Source: the human T2T-CHM13v2.0 reference genome, Homo sapiens
Assembly: GCF_009914755.1 (NCBI RefSeq)
Contig: NC_060941.1
Length of the DNA: 64,000 nucleotides
Strand: one strand, 5' to 3'
The position numbers and the translations under genes are program-made. Positions 6,505 through 44,025 of the stretch are shown piece after piece (position 1 is the first letter of the stretch; the number at the start of each line of letters is the position of its first letter). The notes beneath the pieces were generated by a model. The model had not been told where the DNA came from and did not search any database. It saw nothing but the letters and a program-made list of their open reading frames with translations.

Positions 6505-9450
<2,946 letters not shown>

Positions 9451-21515: not shown

Positions 21516-22134
<619 letters not shown>

Positions 22135-22432
22135 GTGAGAGGTGGGCGGGGGTGCACCTGGGCGCTGGGGTAATCTCCTACTGGCCAGTACACACCAGAG
22201 CCAGGCAGATCTGTGTCCCAGAGCCATCTCAGTGCCTGCCAATGTGGTCGCTTGTCTGAAGTTACTGACAGCTGAGGGTCCTAGGGGCTTAACTGCAGGT
22301 GAAGAGAAGGGTCATGTTCGATCTAGCCTCCTGTCTCCTCTGTGCATCTTCCTCAAGATAAATCAGGTCTCAGCTGGGCACAGTGGCTCACGCCTGTAAT
22401 CTAAGCACTGGGAGGCCAAGGCAGGTGGATCA

Positions 22433-22713
<281 letters not shown>

Positions 22714-23720
22714 CTAACTTTACATTACAGTCCATGTAAGGTACTTATCTCTTGGTGGGAAAGTTGTCTATAGCCATAGCGGGTCTCCTAATCACAAACC
22801 AAGTCTGCACTTAAAACACAAGTGAAGTTTTTTTCATTCAGAATAAAATGAAAAAGGCACGTTTGCTCCAGTGATATTGCCTTTACCACGGTATTGGCCA
22901 CTCCTTTCAGATGTTAAGAGCCTACAGTGAGTTCTGTGTGTGTTGTGGATGGAAGTGATTCCCTGGAATTATGTAGAACCCATTCAGAAGAATGTTGACA
23001 TCAGTTGGTGGGGGAAGCTTAAGACTTTGTTAAAATTCTGGCGGAACTGTTTTAATTGGTCTCTGAAAACAGGTCCCTGCAGGTATTTAGATCAGTGGTA
23101 GATGAGGCAGAGAGGTCAGCTCTCAGGGACAATCTTTAAGGGCGCCAATGTCCCTCACAGGCCCCTGACTTGAAATTCTAGCACGCAGACGCCTCTGGAA
23201 AGGTCCCCACCCCATAGGCACAGGCTCCCTGTGGGGTGATGTGGCAGGGGTGTTGAAGGATGAGGGATAGAAGGGTCCTCAGCACGGCCATCCTTCACTC
23301 TCAGAGGAAGGGCCCAGGGGCCATCTGCTTACGTTGACAAAATAAAACATGCGCGGTGGGCTGTCAGAAGAACCATGTCCAGCCATCTTTTTTCTGAGTG
23401 CAGATTTATAGGAAATTACGCTATTTTCTTACCTGTGTTTCCAGCCATCTCACAGCATCTAATGTGATGCCACAGCCATAGTTTTAGAGGCTCAGTTTTT
23501 CTATTAAGGGTTTTTTCAGGCATCCTCATGTAAAAGGAAATACAGAAAGTGGTTCTCACTTTCAGTTGATCTCATTGCAGAATAAACAATTGTCATATAA
23601 ATGTAGCTGGGTACAATGGCTCAGACCTCTAATTCCAGCCACTCAGGAGGCTATGGCTGGAGGATCACTTGAGCCCAGGAGTTTGAGACCTTGCTGGGCA
23701 ACACAGTGAGACCTCGTCTC

Positions 23721-23933
23721 TTTTTTTTTATTTTTTGAGACGGAGTCTCACTCTGTCACCCAGGCTCTGCAGTGGCTCCATCTTGGCTCACTACAACCTC
23801 CGCGCCTCCTAGGATCAAGCGATTCTCCTCCCTCAGCCTCCCGAGTAGCTGGGATTACAGGTGCGCCCCACCACACCAGGCTAATTTTTGTGTTTTTAGT
23901 AGAGAGGGGGTTTCGCCATGTTGGCTAGACTGG
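23721..23933 (-). mobile_element. 5'-truncated antisense Alu (editing partner strand)
   Basis: T-tail followed by antisense Alu consensus, ending at ttggctagactgg. Confidence 0.9.
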
Positions 23934-23958
23934 CGACCTTGTTTCTTAAAAAAAAAAG

Positions 23959-24255
23959 GGCTGGGTGCAGTGGCTGACACGTGTAATCCCAGCACTTCAG
24001 GAGGCTGAGGCAGGCTGGTCACCTGAGGTCAGGAGTTCGAGACCAGTCTGGCCAACATGGTGAAACCCCCGTCTCTACTAAAAATACAAAAATTAGCCAG
24101 GCGTGGTAGTGCACACCTGTAATCACAGCTACTCAGGAGGCTGCGGCAAGAGAATCACTTGAACCCGGGAGGCAGAGGTTACAGCGAGACAAGATTGCAC
24201 CACTGGACTCCAGCCTGGGCGGCGGAGGTGAGACTCCATCTCAAAAAAAAAAAAA
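23959..24255 (+). mobile_element. Sense AluS hosting the cassette exon
   Basis: Full dimeric Alu from GGCTGGGTGCAG to the A-tail. Confidence 0.93.
24090..24227 (+). CDS. NARF: NARF editing-dependent Alu cassette exon (EISQAW[*>W]CTPVITAT...LDSSLGGG, +46 aa)
   Basis: Inside a sense Alu. Donor GAG|gtgaga at 24227/24228. Genomic acceptor is CAA (24087-24089), not CAG. 138 nt, phase 1-1, with one in-frame TAG (24107-24109). An antisense Alu ends 25 nt upstream of the host Alu. Matches the known ADAR-dependent NARF Alu exon. Confidence 0.88.
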
Positions 24256-24638
24256 TGCAACCAGTGTATATTTCATCATCCTATCTCTGTGAGCTTGTTA
24301 TACACAAAAGTTTTCTGTTTGTTTCATGCAAAGTAGGCCAAAAAAGTTTACAGATTTTCCACATGGGAAAATCATGGAGAGATTGTTTACATAAATCCCA
24401 CAGTTCAAGGGCAGAAAGAGGAATGGAAAGAGGAGTTAGAATTGAATTCTGCTTACGTTTTATTAGTGTTTCATTTTATTGGCCTCACTTTGCCCTTTAG
24501 ATGGACTCCTGCTGTGTGTGATGGAGATTTCATAAGAGGGAGGTCACCCAGGGTCACTAATGTCAAATCTCCTGCAGGGGAAGAAAAGTTCCTGTGGCCA
24601 CCTGTGTCTTTTCAGTGTCTTACTTCGTTTGTCTGCAG

Positions 24639-24702
24639 GTGAAATTGCTCAAATAATGGAGCAAGGTGACCTCTCAGTGAGAGATGCTGCCGTCGACACT
24701 CT
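24639..24702 (+). CDS. NARF: NARF constitutive exon 8 (GEIAQIMEQGDLSVRDAAVDTL)
   Basis: Acceptor tttgtctgcag, donor CT|gtaagt; 64 nt. Confidence 0.95.
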
Positions 24703-25371
24703 GTAAGTGGCTTCTCTGGGGAGAGTCCTCTGGGGGGCAGGACCTCTCGTCAGCCCTGCCAGCCACCTGCCAGGCCCAGGGCTGCCCTGCTTTATGACGA
24801 GGCCATGTGAAGCACTGCGATGCAGTCCCCCAGGCCCCTGCCACAACCCTCAGCCACCCTATAGCTGTTGAATGGGATACCATTCACCAGGGCTGCCAGG
24901 GAGTTGAAGGTTTGGCGGGCTTCCATGGTGTGATTGCCACCCTAAACCCTTGAGGAAGGACAAAATGCACAAACAGCTTTGTCCTCGCTGGCGCAGGGCT
25001 GTTCATGTGTGCACCAGCCCCCTTCTTCCTGAGTGCCGTCTGTGCCTCACATTCCGTGTGGTCTATGGGGCAGTGGGGCAGCTCCCTCAGGCCCCTTTGC
25101 ACCAAGAGTGGCAGTCTGGGTTCTGCTGGGGGCGGTGACCTCGATACCCAGCAAGGCCCAGGGCTCCTGCTGCACCCCAGGCACTGGGCAGAGAGCACCA
25201 CAAAGGCAGCAGCGTGTGTCCTCGCCAACAGTCCGCATCCCAGGTGCTGCATTCGTGCCCTTTTGGGGGAAGGTAAGATAGAAGTTTACAGAATTTAAGC
25301 ATCTGTGGGGCCAGGCGTGGTGGCTCACACCTATAATCACAGTACTTTGGGAGGCTGAGGTAGGAGGATCA

Positions 25372-28087: not shown

Positions 28088-28540
<453 letters not shown>

Positions 28541-28838: not shown

Positions 28839-29461
<623 letters not shown>

Positions 29462-30042
29462 TAATTTTTGTATTTTTAGTAGAGATGGGGTTTCACTATG
29501 TTGGCCAGGCTGGTATTGAATTCCTGACCTCCTGATCCACCCGCCTTGGCCTCCCAAAGTGCCAGGACTGCAGGCATGAGCCACCGTGCCTGGCAGATTG
29601 GAACGTTTTAACATGAGAGGAGCACTTCCCCAATTTATCCCTTCATCCTAAGATTGTGAAAAAGTCCCAAAGAGTGGGAATGGAGACAGACTACTGTATT
29701 TTAGGTTTAAAAAGAAAAATCCAGAAAGTGTCCTGTGAAGAGCTAGGACCCCCAGAGGTTCTAATGCACATGACTTGAAGGTGATTTGATGTGGGAGTGA
29801 GGGCAGAGGGTGGGGTGGCTGTGCCTGTGGACTCCTGTGGCCCTGGGGTTGTTAGGGCAGGCAGTCCACAGTCCCAGATCCCTGCCCATTTTGGCTCTTT
29901 CTTTTACCCACTCATATTTTCCTTGAAAATGTTTTTGCCAGAACATTAATAACTGTCAGCCTTTTAGAATCAGGAGACTTACGTACAAATCTGGATTTTC
30001 AGCTTTTCTTAGAAAAACTGTAGTTTCTGACAACAGTAGGCC

Positions 30043-30255
30043 CCATTCCTCACAGCCAGTCACCACCCTCCTCCCATTCCTCACAGCCAGTCACCACCCT
30101 CCTGGACCATACTCGGCCCTGGGCCATTCCTCACAGCCAGTCACCACCCTCCTCCCATTCCTCACAGCCAGTCACCACCCTCCTGGACCACACTCGGCCC
30201 TGGGCCATTCCTCACAGCCAGTCACCACCCTCCTGGACCATACTCAGGGCCCTGG
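30043..30255. repeat. Composite minisatellite in the NARF long 3' UTR
   Basis: 30-nt core CCATTCCTCACAGCCAGTCACCACCCTCCT starts at 30043, 30074, 30124, 30155 and 30205 (periods 31/50/31/50). Confidence 0.95.
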
Positions 30256-30621
30256 AGGCCTGGCAACCCAGGCCCCAACTCAAACTTGTACATTCAGTCT
30301 TTCAGTCGGACTCGCACTGGGGCAAGGGTGACAGACACGAGAATGGAAAATTGAGAAGGCTGCCCGCACCAGCTGGGTGGGTGCAGGGGGCCCCAGCTCA
30401 TCATCAGCACTGTCGTGGGGTGGGAGTCGGGGGTAAAGGTTCCGTCTGACCCTGAGGGGTTGAGGATATTCAGGTGGTCCAGCCTCCCGCAGAAGACTTC
30501 CCTGTCACCCTTGGCAGACAGGTTTCTTCTCACACGGCCCTGGCCCATCCACTCGCCATGAAGCCCTCTGTGCTCAGGGTGATGGAGCCCCCTCCATTCT
30601 GGCACTGCACTGTGGGCATGA

Positions 30622-30930
<309 letters not shown>

Positions 30931-31441
30931 TGAGACGGGTTTCGCCATGTTGATCGGGCCGGTCAGGCTGGAATTTCTGACCTCAGGTGATCCAACCACC
31001 TCAGCCTCCCAAAATGCTGGGATTACAGGCGTGAGCCACTGCACCTGGCAAAAAATTTTTTTTTAAAAAGGAGAAAGCAGTTTAACCACAAACAGTGAAA
31101 CAGAGCTGGCAGACGCCTGAAACTCCATGGAACCATGCAGCTGTACCCTAGGGCTCCTCCCAGGAAAAGAGAGATGTCAACGTGGCCCAAGGTGTCCTGA
31201 AGCACTGGGATTGGATTAACTCGAGCGATGGCCTTCCCAGCCCTCCGTGCTGCAGAGCCTCTGCTCGCTAGGCTGCCTTCATCTCACTCTGTGTGCTGTG
31301 CCTGTGCACCTGTCTTGTCAATAACTGCATATATTGTGTTGCGTTGCCTGTCTTGCTGGATAACTGCATATATTGTGTTCAGTTGTGTATTTGTTTTGCT
31401 TTCAGTCTATATACAGTTGGGTTTCCAACCTCTGATTCTGG

Positions 31442-31447
31442 AATAAA
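31442..31447 (+). terminator. NARF: NARF distal poly(A) signal AATAAA
   Basis: Canonical hexamer with a U-rich and TGTA-containing upstream region and a GU-rich downstream region; defines a ~2.4 kb 3' UTR. Confidence 0.6.
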
Positions 31448-31944
31448 CAGTTGCAGCGTGTCTGAGTGAATGGTTGAGTGAGCCGAGCCACCTGCTGCCC
31501 CAGCAGGGCCACATCTTGTGGTGTGTTGCCGTCCTCACTGCGGCCACGCCAGGTGGCCTCGCCCTGTGCTTTCTGAGCCACCACCTGGTGTGGAGTCAGG
31601 AGAGTCCTCTGTCTCCCTCCAGGAAGCTGCTCACCAGGCCTAGAACACCAGAAGTCGGTAGAGGGCCACCCTTGTCCAGCTACAGTGAAGAGATCACCTC
31701 CTGCAGTAACCACTGCGCAGGGCACCACAGCTGGCCTGCCGTGAAGCCGCCCCTGCAGGTCGCGTGGGGAGGCCAGGCTGAGGCACTGGGCACCAACATG
31801 AGACACCAGAGGTCCCCCGTGCCTGCTGGTGGGTTATAGCCATGGGGACTGTGTGCATTTTCTTCTGCACAGGAGAAAAGTGGCGAGATTTCCTTCATTG
31901 TAACCGGAACGGTATTAGCCGTCAGGCCAAGGCGCCTAGATGTG

Positions 31945-38964: not shown

Positions 38965-44025
<5,061 letters not shown>

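What the first reader, a model, noticed from the sequence alone, without database searches (positions are those of the whole stretch)
23721..24255. Alu hairpin in which A-to-I editing must both create the splice acceptor and erase a stop codon
Seen: an antisense Alu (23721-23933) lies 25 nt before a sense Alu (23959-24255). The sense Alu has acquired a donor (GAG|gtgaga at 24228). The frame-preserving 138-nt exon begins after CAA (24087-24089), not CAG, and contains one in-frame TAG (24107-24109). Established: this is the published ADAR-dependent, primate-specific NARF Alu exon (AA>AI acceptor, UAG>UIG Trp), so it is not new. It acts as an AND gate: editing the acceptor alone gives an NMD substrate, while editing both sites gives a +46-aa isoform.
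Basis: partly seen in the sequence, partly recalled or inferred. Interest (0 to 1): 0.85.

Follow-up and report, generated by a model that had tools for sequence, protein, structure and literature searches.

The report
Known editing-dependent NARF Alu exon

Summary
Every coordinate in the finding is correct. A 5'-truncated antisense Alu (23721-23933) lies 25 nt before a full sense Alu (23959-24255). The RefSeq-listed alternative exon 24090-24227 is 138 nt. It follows CAA, ends at GAG|GTGAGA and holds one in-frame TAG (24107-24109). The pair folds into a 181-bp hairpin (-332.4 kcal/mol, z = -22.8).

The anatomy matches Lev-Maor et al. 2007 (Genome Biol 8:R29): 25-nt gap, 46 added residues, stop-codon edit at exon position 19, and A at the four other published sites. 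It is already known.

Three glosses need correction:
- **CAA is ancestral.** It is the common Alu state (AA in 77 of 83 other copies in the window), not a lost CAG. TAG is the derived state (TGG in 74 of 83).
- **The AND gate is only formal.** Both edits depend on one duplex. The stop site is a UAG with an A:C mismatch and is published as edited in more than 97% of exon-containing mRNA, unchanged by puromycin. The A:U-paired acceptor is the limiting step.
- **ADAR dependence is inferred.** It rests on partner-Alu deletion and A-to-G mimics. The paper's text has no enzyme depletion.

One untested addition: a second sense Alu in the same intron (22373-22680) is predicted to compete almost equally for the antisense Alu.

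The parts
22005..22134 (+). Constitutive NARF exon upstream (exon 7 of the paper). It ends one base into a codon.
   Evidence: Hub annotation. Phase computed. Translation matches Pfam Fe_hyd_lg_C profile positions 118-153 of 245, E = 8.3e-07.
22373..22680 (+). Second sense Alu in the same intron; predicted rival partner for the antisense Alu.
   Evidence: blastn 81% over query 2-297. Cofold ddG -156.9 against -168.1 kcal/mol for the exon Alu. Whole-intron folds.
23606..23720 (+). Free sense Alu monomer that abuts the T-tail of the antisense Alu; a weak rival partner.
   Evidence: Direct repeat D2, 75% to 23960-24067. RF00017 43.8 bits on the plus strand. Cofold ddG only -42.9.
23721..23933 (-). 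Antisense, 5'-truncated Alu; the upstream arm of the dsRNA.
   Evidence: Aligns as reverse complement to positions 85-297 of the sense Alu. RF00017 53.1 bits on the minus strand. Its deletion abolishes inclusion in the published minigene.
23934..23958 (+). 25-nt spacer between the two Alus.
   Evidence: Read. Equals the 25 bases in the paper.
23959..24255 (+). Full-length sense Alu with A-tail. Its part 24043-24255 is the downstream arm of the dsRNA. Its left monomer 23959-24042 lies in the loop.
   Evidence: sense-arm span paired 24043-24255. RF00017 plus-strand hits for both monomers.
24088..24089 (+). AA at the 3' splice site. A24089 must be read as G (inosine) to give an AG acceptor.
   Evidence: A24089 pairs with U23888, P = 0.997, in an AAA triplet. 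AA-to-AT abolishes inclusion and AA-to-AG rescues it in the published minigene.
24090..24227 (+). 138-nt alternative Alu exon; adds 46 residues.
   Evidence: The hub table lists the exon under other RefSeq transcripts. Length and frame. Peptide with TAG read as Trp is P0001.
24107..24109 (+). In-frame TAG. A24108 is site E1 (exon position 19), recoded to Trp by editing.
   Evidence: A24108 is unpaired opposite C23869, between paired neighbours. Published as nearly 100% edited.
24113..24135 (+). Span holding the published sites E2 (24113), E3 (24121), E4 (24122) and E5 (24135).
   Evidence: All four are A. Coding effects if read as G: Thr to Ala, silent Val, Ile to Val, Gln to Arg. E2 and E5 face C; E3 and E4 pair with U.
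24228..24233 (+). 5' splice site GTGAGA after exon-final GAG.
   Evidence: A GT in the equivalent place occurs in 24 of 69 other Alu copies, but the exact nine-base form in 0 of 69.
24639..24702 (+). Constitutive NARF exon downstream. The junction codon is GGT (Gly) with or without the Alu exon.
   Evidence: Hub annotation.

Best explanation
This is the published editing-dependent Alu exon of human NARF.

**Proposed mechanism**
1. In the pre-mRNA, the truncated antisense Alu (23721-23933) pairs with the right two-thirds of the sense Alu 25 nt downstream (24043-24255). The resulting duplex is about 180 bp long and imperfect.
2. dsRNA adenosine deaminases (ADARs) act on that duplex.
3. Deamination of A24089 turns the genomic CAA into a CAI that the spliceosome reads as CAG. 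With the strong GAG|GTGAGA donor at 24228, this allows inclusion of a 138-nt exon.
4. Deamination of A24108 turns UAG into UIG (Trp), so the exon reads through and adds 46 residues inside the Fe-hydrogenase-like domain of NARF.

**Which step limits inclusion**
- The stop-codon A sits in the best known ADAR context: U on its 5' side, G on its 3' side, and opposite a C. It is edited almost always.
- The acceptor A is A:U paired in an AAA context and is edited in only a fraction of molecules. Acceptor editing, not stop removal, therefore sets the inclusion level.
- The same duplex also hinders the spliceosome, so the partner Alu both enables and caps inclusion.

**Status of each step**
- Shown here: the anatomy, the frame and the predicted pairing.
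- Shown in print: exon inclusion in all tissues tested, A-to-G changes at five exonic sites, loss of inclusion when the partner Alu is deleted or AA is changed to AT, and rescue by AA-to-AG.
- Inferred: inosine at the acceptor itself, and which ADAR acts.
For: **Sequence and frame**. CAA, TAG and GAG|GTGAGA sit at the stated places. The exon is 138 nt, and TAG is in frame and is the only stop the exon adds.

**Duplex.** -332.4 kcal/mol, z = -22.8; 181 inter-Alu pairs over 24043-24255.

**Context of the edited sites**
- A24089 pairs with U23888 (P = 0.997).
- A24108 is unpaired opposite C23869, in a TAG triplet.
- E2 and E5 also face C.
- E3 and E4 pair with U.

Published mean editing is E1 nearly 100%, E2 53.6%, E5 37.5%, E3 26.1% and E4 7.9%. 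The three A:C sites rank above the two A:U sites, which fits the predicted fold.

**Published tests** (PMC1852406)
- The wild-type minigene gives 23% inclusion.
- Deleting the antisense Alu gives none.
- AA-to-AG without the partner gives about twice the wild-type level.
- AA-to-AT gives none.
- AA-to-AG with the partner gives about 30%.
- Mutating the flanks of E1, or the base opposite it, lowers editing.
- Puromycin leaves E1 editing above 97%.

**Other support**
- Exon boundaries 24090-24227 equal an exon of other RefSeq transcripts in the hub table.
- The insertion point is inside Pfam Fe_hyd_lg_C: flanking exons match profile positions 118-153 and 191-239 of 245.
- Later papers restate the case.
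Against: [quoted passage not shown]
- The paper's text has no ADAR depletion or overexpression: 0 occurrences of siRNA, overexpress or ADAR1. Two searches for such a test on NARF listed mainly reviews and editing surveys; none of the listed titles or abstracts reports a depletion test on this exon.
- In an equilibrium fold of the whole intron, the antisense Alu pairs mostly with another sense Alu (116.9 expected pairs) and only 62.5 with the exon Alu. The simple two-Alu hairpin is therefore not the predicted ground state.
- Three genomic AGs lie 6, 10 and 19 nt downstream of the AA. The model does not explain why they are not used when editing is prevented.
- A paediatric-cancer survey reports lower NARF editing in spliced mRNA than overall. 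The passage read does not say which site, and this is not obviously expected.
- No RNA data could be examined here.
Confidence: 0.9

Rival explanations
1. True two-input AND gate. Acceptor editing and stop-codon editing are separate decisions. Molecules edited only at the acceptor are made in quantity and removed by nonsense-mediated decay.
For: The logic is sound on the sequence. TAG at 24107 lies 119 nt before the exon's 3' junction, and four more junctions follow (hub exon table). By the exon-junction rule (established knowledge), an unedited stop would mark the mRNA for decay.
Against: - E1 is edited in nearly 100% of exon-containing mRNA in all tissues and lines tested, and puromycin did not change the level of more than 97%.
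- Both sites lie 19 nt apart in one duplex, so they share the same inputs.
- An A-to-G mimic at E1 raises inclusion, which couples the two events.
Confidence: 0.1
2. The AA acceptor is used without editing. The partner Alu is needed only for RNA architecture, for instance looping that brings splice signals together, and the exonic A-to-G changes are bystanders.
For: Acceptor editing was not observed directly, and there is no enzyme depletion in the paper's text.
Against: - AA-to-AT abolishes inclusion.
- AA-to-AG restores inclusion even with the partner Alu deleted, at twice the wild-type level, so the partner is not needed once a G is present.
- The duplex is demonstrably an editing substrate at five nearby sites.
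- A24089 lies in a stable helix (P paired = 0.997).
Confidence: 0.04
3. Three-Alu competition. The sense Alu at 22373-22680 is transcribed first and competes with the exon Alu for the single antisense Alu. This sets how often, and how far, the exon Alu becomes double-stranded. It adds to the main explanation and does not replace it.
For: - Cofold ddG is -156.9 against -168.1 kcal/mol.
- Whole-intron minimum energies with one or the other sense Alu blocked are -849.8 against -852.0.
- In the free ensemble, 23721-23860 pairs with the intron Alu (116.9 expected pairs) and 23861-23933 with the exon Alu (62.5). The acceptor stays paired (P = 0.997) and the donor is released.
- The published 2.8-kb minigene contained this Alu, and no mutant of it appears in the text read.
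Against: - Equilibrium folding of 2.5 kb is unreliable, and loop-length and kinetic effects favour the partner 25 nt away.
- Published editing at E2-E5 (24113-24135), up to 53.6%, needs a duplex over positions that the split model leaves unpaired with the antisense Alu.
Confidence: 0.2
4. The exon is a tolerated by-product. The mechanism is as published, but the +46-residue isoform has no selected function.
For: - The insertion falls in the middle of a conserved domain, after Fe_hyd_lg_C profile position 153 of 245.
- The exon is young. The paper reports that rhesus lacks the human 3' splice site through a 44-nt deletion.
- The paper states that the function of the isoform is unknown.
- The peptide is ordinary Alu-derived sequence.
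Against: - Inclusion was seen in every tissue and line tested.
- Editing at the stop is near-complete.
- The length preserves the frame.
- However, 27 of 69 other Alu copies also have a length divisible by three over the same span, so the frame argument is weak.
Confidence: 0.35

Closest known systems
NARF exon 8 Alu exon (Lev-Maor, Sorek, Levanon, Paz, Eisenberg, Ast 2007, Genome Biol 8:R29; PMC1852406)
   Same: It is the same locus and the same object: the 25-nt gap, AA acceptor, 138 nt / 46 residues, TAG at exon position 19, and A at exon positions 24, 32, 33 and 46.
   Different: Nothing differs in the anatomy. The paper gives 81% identity between the Alus; blastn here gives 82%.

Added here:
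- The antisense Alu is 5'-truncated.
- Edited sites are sorted into A:C and A:U classes.
- A census of Alu copies shows which states are ancestral.
- A second sense Alu is a predicted competitor.
ADAR2 (ADARB1) self-editing, which makes an AI 3' splice site (cited as ref. 19 in PMC1852406; seen only as cited there)
   Same: An intronic AA is read as AG after A-to-I editing, which creates an alternative 3' splice site.
   Different: As the paper describes it, that case extends an existing exon and feeds back on the enzyme. It is not described there as needing a stop codon to be edited away. Nothing was tested here.
Six other Alu exons with a genomic AA at the 3' splice site, e.g. NR_024561 (PMC2879366, section 8 read)
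   Same: An Alu exon, an AA acceptor, an inverted Alu partner, and extra A-to-G sites in the exon.
   Different: The best-supported case is a non-coding, brain-only transcript. Its exon Alu is antisense and the partner lies 731 nt downstream. That section does not describe any stop-codon recoding.
SELENON Alu exon suppressed by ADAR1 editing of its 5' splice site (PMC9076623, abstract read)
   Same: A-to-I editing within an Alu decides whether an Alu exon is included, and NMD is the fate of the wrong product.
   Different: The sign is opposite: editing destroys a splice site and prevents exonization. In that case ADAR1 dependence is stated by the authors.

Membership tests
Published NARF editing-dependent Alu exon (Lev-Maor 2007) | Lies in NARF between the exons the paper | tested here: met
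   The hub table places NARF exons at 22005-22134 and 24639-24702. Their translations, in the frame that keeps the whole CDS open, match Fe-hydrogenase domains.
Published NARF editing-dependent Alu exon (Lev-Maor 2007) | Sense Alu exon with a genomic AA at the 3' splice site; adds 46 in-frame residues | tested here: met
   CAA at 24087-24089; the exon is 138 nt and in frame.
Published NARF editing-dependent Alu exon (Lev-Maor 2007) | Oppositely oriented Alu 25 bases upstream, about 81% identical | tested here: met
   Spacer 23934-23958 is 25 nt. Identity is 82% over 210 nt by blastn. Inverted-repeat arms are 85-93% complementary.
Published NARF editing-dependent Alu exon (Lev-Maor 2007) | TAG whose A is exon position 19, and A at exon positions 24, 32, 33 and 46 | tested here: met
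   24108, 24113, 24121, 24122 and 24135 are all A at those exon positions. Positions are taken from Table 1 of the paper.
Published NARF editing-dependent Alu exon (Lev-Maor 2007) | A-to-G differences between RNA and DNA at these sites, and the exon present in mRNA | not testable with these tools
   No RNA data were available. Reported in the paper. The exon is listed among RefSeq transcripts in the hub table.
Published NARF editing-dependent Alu exon (Lev-Maor 2007) | Restricted to primates | not testable with these tools
   No primate genomes were available. The paper reports conservation in chimpanzee and a disrupted arrangement in rhesus. A later paper cites gorilla and human. Moller-Krull 2008 is not held. 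The supplementary alignment is closed.
ADAR substrate (A-to-I editing of long dsRNA) | Long, mostly paired intramolecular duplex that covers the edited adenosines | tested here: met
   In silico only: 181 pairs, z = -22.8. All six adenosines lie within 24043-24255.
ADAR substrate (A-to-I editing of long dsRNA) | Loss of editing and of the exon when ADAR is removed | not testable with these tools
   Not found in the paper's text. None of the papers listed by two searches reports such a test on NARF in its title or abstract. The listed papers were not all read.
Alu (7SL-derived dimeric SINE) | Two 7SL-related monomers joined by an A-rich linker, with an A-tail and many copies | tested here: met
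   RF00017 hits for both monomers of the sense copy (46.3 and 30.5 bits) and for the antisense copy (53.1 bits), all below the gathering score of 70, as expected for a derived repeat. The A-tail runs to 24255. There are 138 HSPs in the window. The subfamily names (AluSx, AluSg) come from the paper and were not tested.
NMD target (premature stop upstream of an exon junction) | Stop more than about 50-55 nt upstream of the last exon junction | tested here: met
   True by coordinates for an exon-containing mRNA with unedited TAG (hub exon table). The published puromycin test found no hidden pool of such mRNA.

The most novel reading that the evidence does not exclude
Three Alus, not two, control the exon. 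The sense Alu at 22373-22680 is transcribed before the antisense Alu and is predicted to bind it almost as well as the exon Alu does. It takes over the half of the antisense Alu that would otherwise cover the donor and the 3' part of the exon. Only the roughly 62 bp that hold the acceptor and the stop codon then stay double-stranded. This partial duplex would allow editing where it is needed while freeing the 5' splice site. Variation in this competition would tune inclusion independently of ADAR level.
Probability: 0.15. Interest if true: 0.35.

Novelty: already known. Interest (0 to 1): 0.12.

Why it matters
The case itself matters and is well known. It shows that RNA editing can create a primate-lineage coding exon from an intronic repeat whose DNA lacks a usable acceptor and carries a stop codon. 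Exon inclusion then follows editing activity across tissues.

For this scan, the value is as a positive control. A reader without tools recovered a published editing-dependent exon, exact to the base, from raw sequence.

Three questions remain open in what I could read:
- direct proof of inosine at the acceptor and of the enzyme responsible;
- whether the +46-residue NARF isoform does anything;
- whether other Alus in the intron modulate the switch.

Tried and rejected
- **Extra G at the donor (dropped).** I considered that the extra G, which makes GAG|GTGAGA unique among the window's Alus (0 of 69), was also what made the exon length a multiple of three. Over the same span, the other copies are 138 nt as often as 137 nt (21 of 69 each), and 27 of 69 are divisible by three.
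- **Adjacent sense monomer as a serious competitor (rejected).** For 23606-23720, cofold ddG is only -42.9 kcal/mol, and it has 0.0 expected pairs in the whole-intron ensemble.
- **miRNA-family matches (rejected).** Sub-threshold hits to mir-1303, mir-1268, mir-1285 and mir-3135 are Alu-derived look-alikes far below their gathering scores.
- **Searches for ADAR knock-down or knock-out evidence on this exon.** Searches listed mainly reviews and editing surveys, and no listed title or abstract reports such a test on this exon. The passages I read in four papers only restate the 2007 result or list NARF sites.
- **Not available.** Moller-Krull et al. 2008 (PubMed id 18680752) is not held.
- **Not attempted.** No structure prediction or homology search was run, because nothing here turned on them.

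Full report
**Observation**

I read 23500-24800 and 21950-22200 and checked each position by script.
- 24087-24089 is CAA, 24107-24109 is TAG, and 24225-24233 is GAGGTGAGA.
- The interval 24090-24227 is 138 nt. It is bounded by a genomic AA where an AG acceptor is expected and by a GT donor at 24228.
- The T-run of the antisense copy starts at 23721, and its alignable end is 23933.
- The spacer 23934-23958 is 25 nt.
- The sense copy runs from 23959 to the end of its A-tail at 24255.

**Frame**

The ten annotated coding pieces in the window give one open frame, with a single terminal stop, when read from 915. The six pieces before the Alu exon sum to 742 nt, so one base is carried over. Codons in the Alu exon start at 24092, and TAG at 24107 is in frame.

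With the exon spliced in, the reading has two stops: this TAG and the normal TGA. The junction codon is GAA (Glu) on entry. On exit it is GGT (Gly), the same Gly as in the skipping form, so the exon adds exactly 46 residues. Read with TAG as Trp, the internal 45 codons give protein P0001.

**Are these Alus, and in these orientations?**

- blastn of 23959-24255 against the window gives 138 HSPs on both strands.
- Rfam gives sub-threshold matches to metazoan SRP (7SL) RNA. They fall on the minus strand at 23735-23881 (53.1 bits) and on the plus strand at 23960-24077 (46.3) and 24096-24244 (30.5). A fourth lies on the plus strand at 23606-23722 (43.8). The gathering score is 70.
- The alignment shows that the antisense copy is 5'-truncated and matches only positions 85-297 of the sense copy.
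- The subfamily names AluSx and AluSg are the paper's and were not tested here.

**Hairpin**

- The repeat finder reports arms of 110 nt at 85% and two of 28 nt at 93% complementarity.
- Region 23721-24255 folds at -332.4 kcal/mol, against -175.2 +/- 6.9 for 100 shuffles. That gives z = -22.8, with no shuffle as good.
- There are 181 inter-Alu pairs (6 G-U) over 24043-24255. The left monomer of the sense Alu lies in the loop.
- Such a value follows from any close inverted Alu pair, and the window is full of Alus. The hairpin on its own is ordinary.

**Where the critical adenosines sit**

| Site | Position | Predicted context | Published mean editing |
|---|---|---|---|
| Acceptor | 24089 | pairs with U23888 (P = 0.997), AAA triplet | about one-third in 293T (paper's estimate) |
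| E1 | 24108 | unpaired opposite C23869, between paired neighbours, TAG triplet | nearly 100% |
| E2 | 24113 | faces C | 53.6% |
| E5 | 24135 | faces C | 37.5% |
| E3 | 24121 | pairs with U | 26.1% |
| E4 | 24122 | pairs with U | 7.9% |

Contexts are; editing levels are. The three A:C sites rank above the two A:U sites. It is established knowledge, recalled rather than tested here, that ADARs prefer an A opposite C with a 5' U or A and a 3' G. That fits near-complete editing of the stop and only partial editing of the acceptor.

**What is ancestral**

I compared the other Alu copies in the window.

| Feature | State in other copies | Count |
|---|---|---|
| Acceptor-equivalent dinucleotide | AA | 77 of 83 (AG in none) |
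| Codon equivalent to TAG | TGG | 74 of 83 (TAG in 2 of 83) |
| Donor-equivalent place | contains GT | 24 of 69 |
| Donor-equivalent place | exact nine-base form found here | 0 of 69 |

- The acceptor AA is the normal A-rich linker of an Alu.
- The stop is a G-to-A change that editing reverses at the RNA level.
- The donor is a common change, sharpened here by one extra G.
- The frame-preserving length is not special: 21 of 69 copies are 138 nt over the same span, and 27 of 69 are divisible by three.

**Comparison with print**

I read the Results, Discussion, Methods and figure legends of Lev-Maor et al. 2007 (PMC1852406). The paper describes:
- an Alu exon with an AA 3' splice site as exon 8 of NARF;
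- an oppositely oriented Alu 25 bases upstream, at 81% identity;
- 46 added residues;
- E1 at exon position 19 changing TAG to TGG;
- E2-E5 at positions 24, 32, 33 and 46.

All of these match the window.

Experiments reported there:
- The exon was found in all tissues and lines tested.
- E1 was edited in nearly 100% of exon-containing mRNA, and puromycin left this above 97%.
- The wild-type minigene gave 23% inclusion.
- Deleting the antisense Alu, or changing AA to AT, gave no inclusion.
- AA-to-AG without the partner gave about twice the wild-type level, and about 30% with it.
- Mutating the neighbours of E1, or the base opposite it, lowered editing at E1 and at other sites.
- A-to-G mimics at E1 and E3 raised inclusion, and the mimic at E4 lowered it.

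Later papers repeat the case as an example; I read passages only. The object is therefore already known.

- The 'AND gate with an NMD branch' is formally valid. By coordinates, an exon-containing mRNA with an unedited TAG would carry a premature stop well upstream of later junctions.
- The published data show no hidden pool of such molecules.
- The two adenosines are 19 nt apart in one duplex.
- Editing at E1 itself favours inclusion.
- The better description is one limiting edit (the acceptor) and one saturated edit (the stop), both driven by the same structure and enzyme.
- 'ADAR-dependent' is an inference in the paper. Its text has no siRNA, overexpression or ADAR1, and it says acceptor editing is postulated from the genomic sequence.
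- Two literature searches listed no paper whose title or abstract reports a depletion test on this exon. I did not read all the papers listed, and subscription papers are not in the library.

**Protein context**

The flanking exons match Pfam Fe_hyd_lg_C at profile positions 118-153 and 191-239 of 245. The last coding exon matches Fe_hyd_SSU. The insert therefore falls inside the hydrogenase-like domain, as the paper says.

If edited, E2, E4 and E5 would change Thr to Ala, Ile to Val and Gln to Arg. E3 is silent. The long isoform is therefore a mixture of sequences. Its function is unknown in what I read.

**A second sense Alu as competitor**

Intron 7 (22135-24638) holds another full sense Alu at 22373-22680.
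- Its predicted binding to the antisense Alu is close to that of the exon Alu: cofold ddG is -156.9 against -168.1 kcal/mol.
- Folding the whole intron with one or the other blocked gives -849.8 against -852.0 kcal/mol.
- In the unconstrained ensemble the antisense Alu is shared. Positions 23721-23860 pair with the intron Alu (116.9 expected pairs), and 23861-23933 pair with the exon Alu (62.5).
- The acceptor is still paired (P = 0.997), the helix ends at E1, and the donor is free.

Two points argue against this being the main state. Equilibrium folding of 2.5 kb is a weak guide. Published editing at E2-E5 also needs a duplex over positions that this model leaves unpaired with the antisense Alu.

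The published 2.8-kb minigene contained this Alu, and I saw no mutant of it. This is a lead, not a result.

**An unexplained point**

Genomic AGs at 24095/96, 24099/100 and 24108/09 lie 6, 10 and 19 nt after the AA. Exons starting there would be 131, 127 and 118 nt, all out of frame. The published minigene shows no inclusion when editing is prevented, so they appear unused, and I cannot say why. Editing at E1 would also remove the last of these AGs; that is my inference.

**Limits**

- No RNA data and no primate genomes could be examined.
- Moller-Krull et al. 2008, on the evolutionary steps, is not held. I saw only its reference.
- Earlier findings of this scan were not open.

**Verdict**

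| Question | Answer |
|---|---|
| Observation | confirmed to the base |
| Interpretation | right on identity, overstated on the gate and on enzyme proof |
| Novelty | already known |
| Interest | low, apart from a small, testable idea about a third Alu |

Noticed in passing
window 22373-22680 (+): A second full sense Alu lies in the same intron. It is predicted to bind the antisense Alu almost as well as the exon Alu does. In the whole-intron ensemble it takes over 23721-23860.
   Followed up: partly
window 23606-23768: A free sense Alu monomer (23606-23720) abuts the T-tail of the antisense Alu. The tail-to-tail junction 23690-23768 gives sub-threshold mir-1303 and mir-1954 matches (42.8 and 40.6 bits; gathering scores 107 and 99), so it is not called as a miRNA.
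   Followed up: partly
window 24095-24109 (+): Three genomic AG dinucleotides lie 6, 10 and 19 nt downstream of the AA acceptor. All would give out-of-frame exons. The published minigene implies they are not used when editing is blocked, and this is unexplained.
   Followed up: partly
window 29304-29584 (-) and 30756-31045 (-): Two antisense Alus lie inside the long 3' UTR exon of NARF (28839-31460), and a sense Alu sits at 28136-28419 in the preceding intron. These are possible further editing substrates. They were seen only as blastn hits.
   Followed up: no
window 42823-43116 (+) and 6606-6783 (-): These are the only other Alu copies in the window with TAG at the position equivalent to the edited stop (2 of 83). 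Neither has a GT at the donor-equivalent place or covers it.
   Followed up: no
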